Source of the DNA: Myxococcota bacterium
GTDB taxonomy: Bacteria > Myxococcota > JACRCW01
DNA length: 17,680 nucleotides
Reading direction: 5' to 3'
Assembly (NCBI GenBank): GCA_040752415.1
Contig: JBFMGU010000217.1
Coordinates: forward strand, 1-17,680
Below, piece by piece: positions 5,661-11,889 of this stretch. The notes below the pieces were generated by a model. The model worked only from the letters and a program-made list of their open reading frames with translations, did no database searches and was not told where the DNA came from. The translations under genes and the position numbers were made by a program. Every line of letters begins with the position of its first letter. Within the stretch, counting starts at the first letter, position 1.

Positions 5661-7163
5661 ATGGCATCCCAAGCCGAAACCGCGGCTTTGCCGGAGAGGT
5701 TCAGCACGGGCGTGGCGGGCCTGGACACCATCCTGGGGGGCGGTTTCTTCCGCGGCGGCATCTACGTGGTGAGCGGGAGGCCGGGGGCGGGGAAGACCAT
5801 CTTTGCCAACCAGGCCTGCTTCCAACACGCCGCGCGGGGGGAGCGCGCGCTCTATGTGACGCTATTGGCGGAGAATCACGCGCGAATGCTGACGCAGATG
5901 CGCTCCCTCTCGTTCTTCCGCCAGGAGAGCGTGGGGACCAGCATCCACTTCATCAGCGCCTTTGACGCCCTGGCCAAGGAGGGACTGGATGGCCTGTTGC
6001 GCGTGGTGCAGAAGACCGCGCGCGACCTGGGCGCCACGCTCCTGGTGCTGGACGGGATGGTGACGGCGGAGAACCTGGCGCGCAACAACGTGGACTACAA
6101 GCGCTTCATCCATGAGCTGCAGACGTGGTGCGGGCTCATGGAGTGCTCCGTGATCCTGTTGACCAGCACACCCTCGGACCCGGCCATCCAGCCGGAGCAC
6201 TCCATGGTGGAGGGCATCATCGAGCTGTGTCGGCAGGGGCACCGCATGCGCAGCGTCCGGCTGCTCAGCGTCACCAAGTTCCGCGGCGGTCCGGTGCTGG
6301 AGGGGGAACACTCCTATGTCATTGACCAGAACGGGCTGGACGTATTCCCGCGGCTGGAGTCGCTGGCCATGCATCCGCCGGTGGCGCGTGACCACGGGGC
6401 GCGCGCGGGGACAGGTGTGGCGGCGCTGGACCGGGTGCTGGGCGGGGGATTCCCGGTGGGCTCGGCGTCGCTGGTGCTGGGGCCTACCGGCTGCGGCAAG
6501 ACCATGCTGGGCATGCAGTTCCTGGAGGCGGGCGCGGCGCATGGGGAGAACGGGTTGTTGTTCACGTTCTTCGAGAACGCGGTCGACCTCGTGGAACGGC
6601 AGGGCAGCGTGTGGCGGCGCCTGCGTGGTCACCTGCAGGAGGGTCGCATCCACGTGTGCTGGCAGCCGCCCACCGAGCGCATCCTGGACGCCATGGGCGC
6701 CACGCTCGTCGACACGGTGGTCCGACAGCGGGCGCGCCGCGTGTTCATGGATGGCCTGGCCGGCTTCCGCGAAGCGCTGCCCAACCCGGAGCGCCTCTCC
6801 GCGTTCTTTGCCGCGCTCACGCAGATGCTGGCGGACCAGGGGGTGACCACGCTGGTCTCCGAGGAGACGCGCGACCTTCTCCCGCGGGAGGCGCAGATTC
6901 CCACCACCGGCGTCTCCGCCACGTTCCAGAACATCCTCTTCCTGCGCCACGTGGAGGACCGCGGCCACCTCACGCGCGTGGTCTCCGTGGTCAAGATGCG
7001 CGACAGCCCCCACGAGCACGGCACCTACCGCGTCACCGTCGGTGGCGACGGGCTGGACCTCCACGGCGCGCTGCCGGACCCGGCTCCCGGTGGTCGCGCC
7101 GCGAGGACAACCCGGGCCACACCGCGCCGCGCCAGGGTCCGCGCCAAGGCAAGGAAGCGCTGA
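5661..7163 (+). CDS. KaiC-like (RAD55/RecA superfamily) double-domain ATPase
   Basis: Two ATPase domains: STGVAGLDTILGGG...GRPGAGKT...LLVLDG...KFRG and TGVAALDRVLGGG...GPTGCGKT...VFMDG...KMRDS. Strong SD GGAGG before ATG 5661. Confidence 0.92.
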   Translation: MASQAETAALPERFSTGVAGLDTILGGGFFRGGIYVVSGRPGAGKTIFANQACFQHAARGERALYVTLLAENHARMLTQMRSLSFFRQESVGTSIHFISAFDALAKEGLDGLLRVVQKTARDLGATLLVLDGMVTAENLARNNVDYKRFIHELQTWCGLMECSVILLTSTPSDPAIQPEHSMVEGIIELCRQGHRMRSVRLLSVTKFRGGPVLEGEHSYVIDQNGLDVFPRLESLAMHPPVARDHGARAGTGVAALDRVLGGGFPVGSASLVLGPTGCGKTMLGMQFLEAGAAHGENGLLFTFFENAVDLVERQGSVWRRLRGHLQEGRIHVCWQPPTERILDAMGATLVDTVVRQRARRVFMDGLAGFREALPNPERLSAFFAALTQMLADQGVTTLVSEETRDLLPREAQIPTTGVSATFQNILFLRHVEDRGHLTRVVSVVKMRDSPHEHGTYRVTVGGDGLDLHGALPDPAPGGRAARTTRATPRRARVRAKARKR

Positions 7164-7164
7164 G

Positions 7165-7551
7165 ATGCGGCGGGGGCGCGCAACCATTCTCGTCGTGGAT
7201 GACGAGTCCGCGGTGGTGCAGGCGCTGGCGGAGGCGCTGACGTCGGAGGGTTACGTGGTGGTGGCGGCGCCGCACGGGCTGGCTGCGTTGGAGGCCGTGA
7301 CCGTGCACCGCCCGGACCTGATCCTGCTGGACCTCATGATGCCGGTGATGGACGGTCTGGCCTTCCTGCGCCGCCTCCGCGCCCAGTCGCCAGGTGACGA
7401 GGTGCCGGTGGTGCTGATGACCGCCGCCACGTCCGCGCTGCTGCAAGCACCCGAGAGATCCTGGGACCACCACCTCCCCAAGCCCTTCACGTTTCCGCAG
7501 CTGGAGCAGGTGGTGCAGCGGGTGCTCGCGCGACGTCGTCAGCCGGCGTGA
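7165..7551 (+). CDS. Single-domain response regulator (CheY-like receiver)
   Basis: ILVVDDE, LILLDLMMPVMDG (phospho-Asp), VVLMTA, KPF. ATG lies 1 nt after the KaiC-like TGA, suggesting translational coupling. Confidence 0.92.
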   Translation: MRRGRATILVVDDESAVVQALAEALTSEGYVVVAAPHGLAALEAVTVHRPDLILLDLMMPVMDGLAFLRRLRAQSPGDEVPVVLMTAATSALLQAPERSWDHHLPKPFTFPQLEQVVQRVLARRRQPA

Positions 7552-7648
7552 GCCTGGGACCAGGGAGCTGCGTCACCCCGGGTATCCAAGGCCGGTGAAA
7601 CGCCGAGTACGGGCTGCGCCGGTGCCGGAACAAGCTGCCCACCGCGCT

Positions 7649-7933
7649 TGCGGACGTCGTGAGCGGACCGCACGTGGAGGGCGGCGGCCGGTCGGCGCCC
7701 TGGCCAGCGACGAGCAGGCTCCCCACCGGCAACGGTCCACCAGGCGCGGCCACGGGTGCATTTCCGGGCGCTGGGATCGGCCGCCAAGGCCGCACCCGAC
7801 GAGGAGTGTGCAGCCTCACGCCCGACGTCCCGGAGCCCCCGGCCTGTTCGGTCCGCCGGGAACGCGCTCGGCGCTGGCCAGGGCGGCGCGGGCTCGCCGC
7901 ACTCCAGGTCGCGGTCCGCTCACGACGTCCGCA
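7649..7933. repeat. Long imperfect inverted-repeat element (~75-bp arms); candidate structured ncRNA or MITE
   Basis: 7649-7671 is the exact 23-bp reverse complement of 7911-7933; 7696-7709 is the exact 14-bp reverse complement of 7872-7885; pairing continues to ~7723/7858; internal sub-hairpins are present. Confidence 0.75.
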
Positions 7934-7968
7934 TACCCGAGTCGCAACTTGCCCCGGCGCAGGGCCTA

Positions 7969-8298
7969 CGGGGCTGCGTCTAAACGAATTGCTAATTCCG
8001 TCGTGGCCGGCGAACACCCAACCCCCCACGCTTGTCCCGCTGCGCTCGCTCGCCCCCCTTCCCCACACCCGCTCACCGTCGTCAACCATTGCGGGGAAGG
8101 GGGGCACGCATTGGCACTGGCACTTTTTCTCGTCGGAAAGAGGGCAGCTGCGCCCAAGGTTGCCCCCCTTCCCCGGCTCGGTGACGACGGAAACCTGGGA
8201 CTGGGGAAGGGGGGCGAGTGGGCGCAGCGGGGCAACCGTGGGGGGTTGGGTGTTCGCCGGCCACGACGGAATGGGCAATTTGTTTAGACGCAGGCCTC
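7969..8298. mobile_element. MITE/REPIN-like non-autonomous element with ~130-bp terminal inverted repeats, flanked by TA
   Basis: 7974-8065 pairs ungapped with 8202-8293 (85 Watson-Crick, 5 G-T, 2 mismatches; perfect 36-bp run 7995-8030/8237-8272). Further blocks pair at 8076-8084/8182-8190 and 8092-8106/8161-8175. TA at 7967-7968 and 8299-8300. No transposase. The repeat is certain; mobility is inferred. Confidence 0.7.
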
Positions 8299-9632
8299 TA
8301 ACGTCCCCTGCGCGCGCTGACGGAGAGCCAGATTCCCACTCCGCCCATGATGGCAATCACGCTGGAGCCACCGTAGCTCATCAGCGGCAGCGTCACGCCC
8401 ACCACCGGCAGCGTCCCGGTCACCATCCCGATGTTCACGAACACGTGCCAGAAGATGAACGCGGCCACGCCCACGGAGAGCAGCGCACCAAACCGGTCGC
8501 GCGCCTTGGAGGCCACGTTGATGCCGGCCCACAGGAGGAAGAAGAACAGGATGATGAGCACCACGCCGCCCACCAGGCCCCACTCCTCGCCCAGCACGCT
8601 GAAGACAAAGTCGGTGTGGTTCTCCGGCAGGAAGCTCAGCTGCGTCTGCGTGCCGGCCTTGAAGCCCTTCCCTTCCGTGCCGCCGGAGCCAATGGCGATC
8701 ATGGACTGGTTGGCGTGGTAACCCGCGCCCAGCGCGTCGGCCTCCGGGTTGAGGAACGTGAGCACGCGCTTCTTCTGGTACTCCTTGAGGACGGTGAACC
8801 ACGCCACCACGCTGCCCGCCACGGCAATCACCGCGCTGATGGCCAGGCTGGCCGGTCGCATCCCGCAGAAGAGCAGCATGCTGAGCGCAATGGCCACGTT
8901 GATGGAGGCCGTGCCCAGGTCCGGCTGCACCAGGATGAGCCCGCCGGGCACGGCAATGACGTCCATGGGCGCCACCACGCTGCGCGGCGGGAACCCCTCC
9001 CGCGCCACCTTGAAGAGGGCCACCACCAGCCAGAGCATGATCACCCCCACCAGCATCCCGCCCAGCGTGCCTCCCTCCAGCGTCCAGCCCACCTTGGGCA
9101 CGGTGACGGTGGCGGCGGCCAGCTTCTTCCACTTCACGGCCAGGAACACGAGCGCGCCCAGCGGCCGACTCACGTTCAGCGGGCGCACCAGCTCACGCAG
9201 CGTGTAGCCCCCCGGCACCTCCCAGTTGGCCAGGTAGCGCGCCATGAACAGGATGATGGCCAGCTTCATCAGCTCGCTGGGCTGCAGGTTCACCGGCCCC
9301 AGGCCTATCCAGCGCTTGGCGCCCATGATGGAGCGACCCTTCACCAGCACCATCGCCAGCAGGAAGATGACCAGGAAGTAGAACGGGACGGCCACGCGCT
9401 CGAGCACGCGGTAGTCGCTGAGCCCCACCGCAATGGCAAAGCAGACGCCAAAGAACACCCAGAGCGCCTGCGCCAGGAAGAGGTTGGGCGCGGTGACCTG
9501 CGCCGCCGACGAGAGATTGATGATCCCCACCGTGGCCACGGACAGCGCGGCCAGCAGCGGCGTGAAGTCCATGCCCCCCATGCGCGAGGGCGAGCCGCCG
9601 CCGGAGCCTCCGTATCGGGATGAGCCAATCAC
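8298..9632 (-). CDS. rodA: Rod shape-determining protein RodA (SEDS peptidoglycan glycosyltransferase)
   Basis: GAKRWI, QPSELMK, QPDLG, GAGYHANQSMIAIGSGG, FLPENHTDFVFSVLGEEWG, LPVVGVTLPLMSYGGSS; directly downstream of mrdA; GTG 9632 with AGGAG SD. Confidence 0.95.
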   Translation of the reverse strand: MIGSSRYGGSGGGSPSRMGGMDFTPLLAALSVATVGIINLSSAAQVTAPNLFLAQALWVFFGVCFAIAVGLSDYRVLERVAVPFYFLVIFLLAMVLVKGRSIMGAKRWIGLGPVNLQPSELMKLAIILFMARYLANWEVPGGYTLRELVRPLNVSRPLGALVFLAVKWKKLAAATVTVPKVGWTLEGGTLGGMLVGVIMLWLVVALFKVAREGFPPRSVVAPMDVIAVPGGLILVQPDLGTASINVAIALSMLLFCGMRPASLAISAVIAVAGSVVAWFTVLKEYQKKRVLTFLNPEADALGAGYHANQSMIAIGSGGTEGKGFKAGTQTQLSFLPENHTDFVFSVLGEEWGLVGGVVLIILFFFLLWAGINVASKARDRFGALLSVGVAAFIFWHVFVNIGMVTGTLPVVGVTLPLMSYGGSSVIAIMGGVGIWLSVSARRGR

Positions 9633-9645
9633 CGCGCGACTCCTC

Positions 9646-11889
9646 TCACTCCGAGGGTTCCGACTGCTGCGGCACCACGTTCACCGGCACCGGCGTCTTC
9701 CTGCCCACGTCCTTGGCCGCCGTCTGCGGGCGGGAGTGGAACCCCTTCTTCTCGAAGTACGCGCGCATCACCGACGCGCTCACCGGCGCGCTCACCGAGC
9801 CGCCAAACCCACCGTGCTCCGTCAGCGTGACGACGACGATCTCCGGCTTGTCCGCGGGCGCGTACCCGGCAAACCACGCGTGGTCACGCACCCAGTACTC
9901 CATCTTCTCCGCGTCCACGTGCGCCACGCTCTTGGACAGGCGCGCCACCTGCGCGGTGCCGGTCTTGCCGGCAATGCTGATGCCGCTGGTGCGCAGCCAC
10001 TCCCCCAGGCCGGGCGGGTCGTCCTTGTACATGACGCCGCTGGCGGTGCCGCCGGGCTTCACCACGTCGGCCATGCCCGCCATGATGGTCTCCAGGCCGC
10101 GCTGGGGAATCTCCTGCCTGGCCCGCTCGCGCGGCGGGAACTCCTGCACCACGTTGCCGTTGGCATCCTCCCTCCGGAGCACCAGTCGGGGCTCATACAG
10201 GATGCCGCCGTTCACCACCGCGGCGAACGCCATGGCCAGCTGCAACGGCGTCACGTTCACGTCGCCCTGGCCAATGGCGTTGTTGACCACGTAGCCGCCC
10301 TGGTAGCTGCCAAAGCGGTCCTTGTAATACTGCTCGTCCGGCATGATGCCGGGGATTTCTCCGTCCAGCGGAATGCCGGTGCGCCGTCCCAGGCCAAAGG
10401 CGCGCGCCGTCTCCGCCAGCGCGTTGGCGCCCAGCGTGTAGCCCAGCCGGTAGTAGTAGGAGTCGCAGCTCACGGTGACGGACTTCTGCAGCGCAATGCC
10501 GCCGTGACCGGCGCGGTTGAAGCAGCGCCACTGCGTGCGACCCAGCGAGAAGAATCCGGGGCACGGCAGGTGCGTCTCCGGCGTGATCTTGCCTTCCTTG
10601 AGCCCGGCAATGGCGGTGAGGATCTTGAAGGTGGAGCCCGGCGAGTAGTGGTTCTGGATGGCCTTGTTGATCCAGGGCTGCAGCGGGTCGCTGTCCAGGG
10701 CGCGCTTGTCCGCGGCGGTCATGCGCGCGCTGACGATGTTGGGGTCGTAGGTGGGGAAGCTGGCCAGCGCCAGGATGCTGCCGGTGGCCACCTCCACCGC
10801 CACCACGGCGCCCGCACGTCCCCGGAACGCGCTCTCCGCCGCACGCTGCAGGTCCATGTCCAGGCTGAGCACCAGCGTGTTGCCCGGCTTGGCCTCCACC
10901 CTGCGGTCCTCTCCCAGCAGCAGCCGCGCCTTGTCCTCCGGCAACCTGCGGCCCTTGGCGTCGACGACGACCTTCTCCTGCCCATCCACCCCGCGCAGCA
11001 CCTTCTCGAACGTGCGCTCCAGGCCGCGCCGTCCCAGGTAGTCGCCGCGCTGGTAGCCCAGCTCCGCCAGCACCTGCAGCTCCGTGCTGGACACCTCGTT
11101 CATGTAGCCCAGCGTGTGGCTGGCCAGGGAACCCTCGCGGTAGCGACGCACCACCGAGGCCACCACGTCGGCGCCGGGCAGCTCACCCAGGGAGGCGGCG
11201 TGCTCAACACGGGCGTAGACCTCCCAGGGCACGTTCTGCTTCACCAGGATGGGCACAAAGCGGTTGAGGCCCTTGGCGCGGAGCGCTTCCTTCTGCGTGT
11301 CGACGAGACCACCCTCCCCCAGCCCCAGGATCTCGGCCAGCCGACGGAACACCAGCGGCGTGCTGGGGAACTCCAGCGGATAGACCACCACGCTGCCCTG
11401 CCCCTCCGCCTCACGCAGGTCCACGCCGGGAAGCGCCAGCGTGTGCAGCGTGCTGCTGACCTCCGCCAGTCGCTCCTCGGGGACGGAAGGCACCAGCACG
11501 TAGGGCGGCGGATGCGGGTTCTTCAGCGCGGCAATGAGGTCCTCGTTGACCTGGCGCAGGGGACGGTCGCTGCCGGCGGCGCGGAGGATGCGGCCCAGGG
11601 TGTGGCGGGAGTCGGGGAGGAAGGCGGGGGTGACGAACACGTCGTGGCTGGGGCGGTTGTCCACCAGCACGCGCCCCTCCCGGTCCTTCATGATGCCGCG
11701 GTCATGCGGAATGCGACGCAGCTGGACAAAGTTGCTCTCGCTCTTCTGCCGGAACTCCTCGTGACGGAGCACCTGCAGCACGTAGAGCCGGATGATGAGG
11801 ATGGACAGCGCCGCCGCCACCACGCCGAGCATGACGCGGTAGCGGAACTTCCCGTATTGCCGTTCACCGCCGAGACCCAGCCCAACCAC
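9646..11889 (-). CDS. mrdA: Penicillin-binding protein 2 (class B transpeptidase), 747 aa
   Basis: N-terminal TM, RGIMKDREG, RRY, GRRGLE; catalytic motifs STFK (SxxK), SCD (SxD, PBP2-typical) and KTGT; DHAWF; adjacent to rodA. Confidence 0.95.
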   Translation of the reverse strand: MVGLGLGGERQYGKFRYRVMLGVVAAALSILIIRLYVLQVLRHEEFRQKSESNFVQLRRIPHDRGIMKDREGRVLVDNRPSHDVFVTPAFLPDSRHTLGRILRAAGSDRPLRQVNEDLIAALKNPHPPPYVLVPSVPEERLAEVSSTLHTLALPGVDLREAEGQGSVVVYPLEFPSTPLVFRRLAEILGLGEGGLVDTQKEALRAKGLNRFVPILVKQNVPWEVYARVEHAASLGELPGADVVASVVRRYREGSLASHTLGYMNEVSSTELQVLAELGYQRGDYLGRRGLERTFEKVLRGVDGQEKVVVDAKGRRLPEDKARLLLGEDRRVEAKPGNTLVLSLDMDLQRAAESAFRGRAGAVVAVEVATGSILALASFPTYDPNIVSARMTAADKRALDSDPLQPWINKAIQNHYSPGSTFKILTAIAGLKEGKITPETHLPCPGFFSLGRTQWRCFNRAGHGGIALQKSVTVSCDSYYYRLGYTLGANALAETARAFGLGRRTGIPLDGEIPGIMPDEQYYKDRFGSYQGGYVVNNAIGQGDVNVTPLQLAMAFAAVVNGGILYEPRLVLRREDANGNVVQEFPPRERARQEIPQRGLETIMAGMADVVKPGGTASGVMYKDDPPGLGEWLRTSGISIAGKTGTAQVARLSKSVAHVDAEKMEYWVRDHAWFAGYAPADKPEIVVVTLTEHGGFGGSVSAPVSASVMRAYFEKKGFHSRPQTAAKDVGRKTPVPVNVVPQQSEPSE

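What the first reader, a model, noticed from the sequence alone, without database searches (positions are those of the whole stretch)
7563..7954. Candidate large structured non-coding RNA (~390 nt) filling the gap after the receiver gene
Seen: a ~75-bp rod (perfect 23 bp 7649-7671/7911-7933; perfect 14 bp 7696-7709/7872-7885) is capped by a multibranch head: ACCG-GCAA-CGGT GNRA tetraloop (7725-7736), CAGGC/GCCTG (7741-7745/7842-7846), CGGGTGC/GCACCCG (7753-7759/7792-7798) and GGCC-GCCAA-GGCC. An outer stem CGGGTA/TACCCG (7579-7584/7934-7939), with weaker pairing 7563-7574/7941-7954, encloses a side domain at 7586-7648 (CGGTG-AAA-CGCCG; GGGCTGC..GCTGCCC). No credible ORF. I see no signature of RNase P, tmRNA, SRP, 6S or group II intron domain V. 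Inference: an undescribed structured RNA on the + strand, or a MITE-like DNA element. The short stems alone could arise by chance at this GC content; the 23-bp and 14-bp stems could not.
Basis: partly seen in the sequence, partly recalled or inferred. Interest (0 to 1): 0.72.

Follow-up and report, generated by a model that had tools for sequence, protein, structure and literature searches.

The report
Worn hairpin MITE carrying REP doublet
The long hairpin is one worn copy of a roughly 290-base palindromic DNA repeat found at about 150 places in this genome, likely spread as a miniature transposon that carries a pair of REP-like hairpins, so it is most likely ordinary mobile DNA and not a new RNA gene.

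Summary
The stems are real (fold z -6.2) and Rfam has no match. But 7610-7966 is one copy of a dispersed family: 157 loci by BLAST, 151 by a profile that left this copy out and hits it at E 2e-36. Siblings are about 290 bp, with 26-bp inverted ends and 3-bp TNA duplications (10 of 22 clean pairs; chance 3.3). IS1182-family elements show similar ends and a TGA duplication. The 37-bp inner core resembles the REPs flanking this genome's RAYT genes. The multibranch head is private: 0 of 20 siblings keep any of its four helices whole, and the loop looks like a mosaic of two subtypes. There is no overall G-U strand bias (170 vs 153) and the minus strand folds at least as well. The family was not found in the relatives searched. 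No parent transposase with matching ends was found; no RNA data were available. The scan has already noted repeats like this in this genome, and REP-in-MITE elements in other genomes.

The parts
7610..7966 (.). Worn copy of palindromic repeat family A (MITE-like, siblings 278-307 bp; this copy 357 bp)
   Evidence: Profile of 18 siblings, window copy excluded, hits 7622-7962 at E 2.2e-36, envelope 7610-7966; alignment with 20 siblings
7610..7641 (+). Left terminal inverted repeat, degenerate (73% to consensus, apparent 6-nt insertion)
   Evidence: TIR matrix score 15.6 at 7616, just under the cut-off of 16; identity; exact start read by eye
7668..7703 (+). Left REP-like core, worn (78% to the 37-nt consensus)
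7704..7877 (.).
   Evidence: 7710-7790 scores best against A2 copies (top 6 of 6), 7800-7871 against A1 copies (top 6 of 6); model positions 138-155 are matched twice
7771..7809. Extra segment that the 20 aligned siblings lack (58 gap columns); holds the GGCC hairpin and the 3' side of the CGGGTGC helix
   Evidence: no other long match in the genome
7878..7914 (-). Right REP-like core (92% to consensus), inverted relative to the left one
7941..7966 (-). Right terminal inverted repeat, degenerate (65%); flanks of this copy are GTA and TAC, so no direct duplication is retained
   Evidence: no matrix hit at score 8 or more
7563..7609 (.).
   Evidence: No family coverage; best score under a B-end profile E 7.3
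7970..8297 (.). Abutting copy of sibling family B: same TIR type, different core; ends at the rodA stop codon
   Evidence: 100-nt arms, 90% complementary; TIR scores 30.9 and 33.9; 113 loci
7165..7551 (+). Stand-alone response-regulator receiver gene (context; after a KaiC-like ATPase gene)
   Evidence: PF00072 E 6.5e-26
8298..9632 (-). rodA (context; converges on the gap)
   Evidence: TIGR02210 over cut-off

Best explanation
The hairpin is a worn copy of a non-coding palindromic repeat present at about 150 places in this genome, likely spread as a MITE by an IS1182-family transposase acting in trans and carrying a likely captured pair of REP hairpins as its core. Shown: copy number, 26-bp inverted ends, 3-bp TNA duplications in the family, intergenic position with strong bias to convergent gaps, and a 37-bp core that is better conserved than the ends and resembles RAYT-flanking REPs. 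Inferred: a DDE transposase binds the ends and inserts at TGA/TAA-type sites with a 3-bp staggered cut; copies survive mainly at gene 3' ends; the core came from a RAYT system. This copy has decayed ends, no retained duplication and a loop probably made by recombination between two subtypes, so it is probably immobile. Its RNA-like head is probably an accident of that loop.
For: 157 loci; 151 loci on 131 contigs by profile. 250 TIR ends vs 4 in the reversed-genome control; 100 of 250 have TNA just outside. 3-bp direct repeats in 10 of 22 clean pairs (permuted mean 3.3, p 1e-4) and 12 of all 49 pairs (mean 3.4); 4-bp repeats 0 of 22. The IS1182 element at C499 (315 bits, cut-off 270) is bounded TGA|AGGTCTG...CAGACCC|TGA. 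Of 24 loci of it and its homologues, 14 had both ends located and all 14 read TGA...TGA, three starting GGGGCTGAG like a MITE end variant (read from the printed flanks). That IS and a 98-bp core-less MITE (C500) sit in the same third repeat. Only 2 of 157 loci overlap a called gene; 56 of 102 classifiable loci are in convergent gaps vs 227 of 1279 background gaps. RAYT genes at C476 and C512, and a homologue in G026, are flanked by GGAGTGCGG-hairpin repeats. Head helices whole in 0 of 20 siblings; 57.7% paired vs 60.2% shuffled. G-U 170 vs A-C 153, p 0.37; minus strand -256.1 vs plus -247.9. Core pattern: 185 matches here, 1 in 400 other genomes of the phylum.
Against: No transposase gene between matching TIRs was found. 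The C499 IS shares only about the first 7 bases of the end, so it is not shown to be the parent. This copy keeps no target duplication, and 12 of 22 clean pairs lack one. The core is better conserved than the TIRs even in ends picked by their TIR (median 97-100% vs 85%; 100 of 131 ends at 95% or more), which plain MITE decay does not predict. Arms within a copy are more alike than between copies (0.875 vs 0.849, 0 of 300 permutations, 37 copies), and rod pairing and covariation are marginally above shuffles (25 and 26 of 500), so something keeps the hairpin, or copy age and subfamilies mimic that. Subtype A1 alone leans to G-U (98 vs 64), though A2 leans the other way (72 vs 89). No true empty site was seen: in G001 rodA abuts a different gene.
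Confidence: 0.78

Rival explanations
1. The mobile unit is the inner REP doublet (a REPIN), copied by a RAYT through a single-stranded hairpin; the outer ends are old baggage or a later add-on.
For: Core conservation of 89-100% at most columns, falling off outwards; 80 of 221 arms have no recognisable TIR (arms were picked by a core pattern, but the effect holds in TIR-picked ends). Two RAYT genes with similar flanking REPs are in the genome. Arm co-variation. Convergent-gap bias fits REPs (PMC3733652, passages).
Against: Where ends survive they sit at a fixed distance (-57 to -60 in 130 of 135 arms scored 12 or more) and carry 3-bp duplications, which points to a DDE enzyme. Similarity fades gradually rather than stopping at a REP boundary. 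No RAYT is flanked by the exact family-A core. The head tetranucleotide is GGAG, not the canonical GT[AG]G (PMC6006769, passages).
Confidence: 0.13
2. The repeat arrived as mobile DNA, but this or many copies are now kept because the hairpin acts in RNA, as a terminator, nuclease site or stabiliser in the 3' ends of the converging receiver and rodA transcripts.
For: Convergent-gap enrichment; 23 of 250 TIR ends abut a called stop codon; no intrinsic terminator-like site in this gap; 60 Watson-Crick pairs and 5 mismatches in the tested arms of this copy. Such co-option is described for ERIC and SMAG (PMC3184786, passages).
Against: No overall G-U bias by element orientation (p 0.37) or by transcription direction (54 vs 71, p 0.15; 18 same, 13 opposite in 31 tandem contexts). 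This copy is more worn than most siblings. Position bias also follows from purging of harmful insertions.
Confidence: 0.07
3. It is a stand-alone structured non-coding RNA of about 390 nt on the plus strand, as first proposed.
For: z -6.21, no Rfam match, a GNRA-type loop and a branched head in this one copy.
Against: The rod is repeat arms; the head helices are not kept in 20 siblings; the outer stem pairs repeat with unrelated flank; the minus strand folds better; no sigma-70-like promoter nearby; no full-length homologue in 60 genomes by BLAST or 100 by profile (only 18 candidates scored per genome). The nearest relative searched is only of the same family, so these misses are weak evidence.
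Confidence: 0.02

Closest known systems
Bacterial MITEs (Nezha, Correia/NEMIS, ERIC, IMU; PMC3184786 and PMC11602168, passages)
   Same: Short (50-800 bp range), non-coding, multi-copy, intergenic, terminal inverted repeats, short target duplications, stable predicted fold, narrow taxonomic range.
   Different: The whole element is a quasi-palindrome whose best-conserved part is an internal REP-like pair rather than the ends; no cognate transposase gene identified; this copy has lost its duplication.
IS1182-family insertion sequences (NCBIfam NF033551; IS1272 in PMC5678879, passages)
   Same: Ends begin with a purine-rich G-run followed by CTG/GTG-like bases, with a 3-bp TGA duplication in the relatives examined; liking for palindromic targets, which the paper reports for some members.
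   Different: No transposase; the ends match the resident IS only over the first few bases; the MITE also uses TAA/TTA. IS1272 itself replaces stem-loops and leaves no duplication.
REPIN-RAYT systems (PMC3337134, first third of the text; PMC6006769 and PMC3733652, passages)
   Same: Two short imperfect palindromes in inverted orientation, highly conserved, with a variable spacer, forming one long hairpin; extragenic; RAYT genes with similar flanking repeats in the genome.
   Different: Wrapped in 26-bp IS-type ends with TNA duplication; GGAG instead of GT[AG]G at the head; core not identical to the RAYT-flanking repeats. PMC3733652 does mention REP dimers lying inside longer palindromes in a few species.

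Membership tests
MITE | Short, non-coding, many dispersed copies | tested here: met
   157 loci, 2 overlapping a called gene; 278-307 bp end to end in 33 pairs
MITE | Terminal inverted repeats of 10-15 bp or more | tested here: met
   26-bp consensus, 250 ends vs 4 in control; degenerate in this copy (73% and 65%)
MITE | Target-site duplication (family level) | tested here: met
   10 of 22 clean pairs, permuted mean 3.3, p 1e-4; 27 nested or worn pairs set aside, 12 of 49 overall (both TIR families pooled)
MITE | Target-site duplication at this copy | tested here: not met
   Flanks GTA and TAC
MITE | Autonomous partner with the same ends, or empty-versus-filled sites | tested here: inconclusive
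   None found in a 520-contig assembly or by TIR scan; no close strain available
IS1182-derived MITE | End sequence and duplication type of an IS1182 element | tested here: inconclusive
   Same 3-bp duplication type and similar first 7-9 bases in 14 of 14 loci with both ends located, out of 24 examined; inner TIR bases differ
REPIN | Two conserved REP-like palindromes in inverted orientation with a variable spacer | tested here: met
REPIN | 5' GT[AG]G tetranucleotide at the hairpin foot | tested here: not met
   GGAG(T) precedes the hairpin; canonical definition from PMC6006769
REPIN | A RAYT gene flanked by the same REP | tested here: inconclusive
   C512 and C476 RAYTs carry the same head and a similar tail but different palindrome interiors
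REPIN | Excision or cleavage of the doublet by RAYT | not testable with these tools
   No reads listed; needs biochemistry
Known structured RNA families (Rfam 15) | Covariance-model match | tested here: not met
   No hit in 7563-7954 at E<=1
Novel structured ncRNA | Conserved, covarying helices with strand preference | tested here: not met
   Head 0 of 20, no covariation; no overall strand bias; rod only marginal
Novel structured ncRNA | Discrete transcript | not testable with these tools
   No RNA holder listed

The most novel reading that the evidence does not exclude
One IS1182-type pair of ends acts as a general carrier that has captured the target hairpins of two unrelated nuclease systems: a RAYT-type REP doublet (family A, this element) and the hairpins flanking a DUF559 gene (family B, next door). 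After insertion the resident RAYT keeps rewriting the REP cores while the ends decay, so two enzymes maintain one element.
Probability: 0.3. Interest if true: 0.45.

Novelty: new variant of a known kind. Interest (0 to 1): 0.2.

Why it matters
As an RNA candidate it can be dropped: the fold comes from a repeat. It is a caution that z-scores and even arm covariation mislead for palindromic mobile DNA. These repeats also help explain the broken assembly (53 of 154 family-A loci lie within 300 bp of a contig end). The modest point of interest is the layered build, IS-type ends around a REP-like pair that outlasts them. If RAYT activity maintains the core, the family would offer many natural replicates for asking what RAYTs do to REPs.

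Tried and rejected
Rfam: three sub-threshold miRNA hits on the neighbouring family-B hairpin only. tmRNA: the genome's one ARAGORN call is elsewhere. Homologues: 20 of 60 other genomes gave only short hits at E<=0.01, best 6e-6; 0 of 100 with the sequence-only model; exact core pattern 0 in metagenome contigs and 0 in viral contigs. TIR scan of the genome collection: 17 single matches, none with a convincing mate (best 3-6 mismatches of 16), treated as chance. IS5 IS1031/IS427-type N-terminal domain PF13340: not found with this query. Y1 genes at C12 and C24 are flanked by other repeats. RAYT relatives in metagenomes: none confirmed. Sequencing runs: none was listed, no RNA holder listed. Empty site: rodA in G001, G002 and G003 runs straight into other genes, and the KaiC-like gene was not found with this query in G001, so these are not orthologous empty sites. 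The 98-105-bp core-less copies were considered as pre-capture shells; their breakpoints differ and fall at short direct repeats, so I read them as deletions (by eye). One search used a mistyped structure and is void; one search replaces it. The automatic duplication count (2) is too low because the pattern began one base early in 12 loci; I counted from the printed flanks. Literature searches listed no title or abstract start describing a REP doublet inside IS1182-type ends; the library lacks most subscription papers and I read no supplements.

Full report
Observation. The region folds far better than shuffles (z -6.21, 0 of 100), Rfam has nothing there, and no gene is called in the gap. The gap lies between a receiver-domain gene on the plus strand and rodA on the minus strand, so it is convergent.

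It is a repeat. BLAST against the 11-Mb, 520-contig genome found 154 loci. With two sibling queries added it found 157: 79 with both arms, 30 cut by contig ends and 48 partial. A profile of 18 siblings, built without this copy, found 151 loci on 131 contigs and matched 7622-7962 at E 2.2e-36. Family coverage starts near 7610-7620 and ends near 7966; 7563-7609 is single-copy.

MITE anatomy. Siblings are 278-307 bp between 26-bp inverted ends. A matrix finds 250 such ends against 4 in the reversed genome, and 100 of 250 have TNA just outside. These ends belong to both family A and its sibling family B. Of 49 innermost end pairs, 22 had intact termini and were not nested; 10 of the 22 carry a 3-bp direct repeat (TCA 4, TGA 3, TTA 3) against a permuted mean of 3.3 (p 1e-4). 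Over all 49 the count is 12 against 3.4. Only 2 of 157 loci overlap a called gene. Of 102 classifiable loci, 56 are convergent, 40 tandem and 6 divergent, against 227, 601 and 451 for background gaps of 250 nt or more (my own gene caller).

Which enzyme. No transposase lies between matching ends. The genome holds one intact IS1182-family gene in this assembly (315 bits, cut-off 270), bounded by TGA duplications and ends that resemble the MITE end only over the first few bases. Among 24 loci of that gene and its homologues, 14 had both ends located and all read TGA...TGA; three begin GGGGCTGAG, as a MITE end variant does. Nine showed only the 3' end and one neither (counted from printed flanks). 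That IS and a 98-bp core-less MITE sit in the same third repeat. An IS1182-type mover is thus inferred, not shown.

The core. The most conserved part is not the ends but a 37-nt core present once in each arm, itself a small hairpin. In 131 ends chosen by TIR and sub-terminal sequence, median identity is 85% for the TIR and 97-100% for the core. Two RAYT genes (C476 over the cut-off, C512 under it) are flanked by inverted repeats with the same GGAGTGCGG head and a similar tail but different interiors. A homologue in G026 has such flanks too; one in G134 showed none. So the interior looks like a REP doublet, though it lacks the canonical GT[AG]G (PMC6006769, passages). REPINs are described with 94-99% REP conservation in most classes and variable spacers (PMC3337134, first third read). 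The neighbouring family-B copy (7970-8297, 113 loci) has the same type of end, but its interior matches the hairpins on both sides of a DUF559 gene at C323, where the match starts inside the TIR.

RNA tests. In 20 hand-picked siblings covering both subtypes, none keeps any of the four head helices whole; two helices depend on a segment that all 20 lack. Head pairing is 57.7% against 60.2% shuffled. The loop's left part matches subtype A2 and its right part subtype A1, which suggests recombination. Across 78 copies G-U and A-C mismatches number 170 and 153 (p 0.37), with no bias by transcription direction in 31 tandem contexts, and the minus strand of this copy folds at -256.1 against -247.9. 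A 23-bp perfect stem is shorter than the family median of 34.

Results against my reading. Subtype A1 alone leans to G-U (98 vs 64) while A2 leans the other way (72 vs 89). Rod pairing and covariation are marginally above shuffles (25 and 26 of 500). Arms within a copy are more alike than between copies (0.875 vs 0.849; 0 of 300). These fit selection on a DNA hairpin, repair of one arm from the other, or differences in copy age, and they do not exclude an RNA role. This copy keeps no target duplication.

Range. The core pattern occurs 185 times here and once in 400 other genomes of the phylum. BLAST and profile searches of 60 and 100 relatives found no full copy. The closest genome searched is only of the same family, so this shows narrow range and not absence. 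No sequencing run was listed.

Earlier notes. I searched them after forming the MITE reading; the RAYT searches came before. Notes on this genome describe worn MITE copies and pile-ups, a REPIN/MITE hybrid, a DUF559-linked repeat and an IS1182-like element. I could not confirm that they concern the same family; the look-up by sequence returned nothing. One calls the organism an uncultured Myxococcota, which I did not check. Five notes on other genomes report REP doublets inside MITE shells. These are unchecked AI notes, not support.

Verdict. A real hairpin but not a new RNA gene: a worn, probably mosaic and immobile copy of a lineage-restricted MITE-like family with a REP-like doublet inside. 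That it is a repeat copy is near certain; that an IS1182-type enzyme spread it is likely; a role for RAYT or for the RNA fold is open. Interest 0.2.

Noticed in passing
window 7970-8297: A second palindromic repeat (family B, 113 loci) abuts the element, shares its type of end and stops at the rodA stop codon; its interior matches the two hairpins flanking a DUF559 gene at G000:C323 (L126).
   Followed up: partly
G000:C499:5233-6712 (L023): Intact IS1182-family element with TGA duplication, inserted in a third repeat family rich in TCAGAAG/CTTCTGA units that has many copies in the genome.
   Followed up: partly
G000:C512:9100-9910 (L046) and C476:44250-45090 (L045): Two RAYT-like genes, 51% identical, each flanked by its own inverted GGAGTGCGG-type repeats; the C512 repeats have a long inner insert.
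   Followed up: partly
G000:C124:49283-49680, C168:7121-7527, C224:55368-55810: Nested 'Russian doll' stacks: one element sits between the outer 50 bp of another whose middle is gone, with inverted rather than direct flanks; 26 of 250 ends abut such an outer stub. This recalls the stem-loop-replacing transposition of IS1272 (PMC5678879).
   Followed up: partly
G000:C18:24333-24430, C500:24807-24904, C257:10623-10727: 98-105-bp copies with both ends but no core, apparently deletions between short direct repeats.
   Followed up: partly
window 5688-7551: Double-domain KaiC-like ATPase followed by a stand-alone receiver gene; no close match with this query in the three nearest genomes.
   Followed up: partly
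window 8298-9632: RodA matches its family in two stretches, with an extra segment of roughly 70 residues between them.
   Followed up: no
window 9646-11889: PBP2-type protein of 747 aa whose dimerisation-domain match spans 259 residues against a 180-position model, so it carries an insert.
   Followed up: no
G000:C342:6030-6370 and C279:42070-42920: Partial IS1182/IS5-like transposase genes: one cut by a contig end, one in two frames.
   Followed up: no
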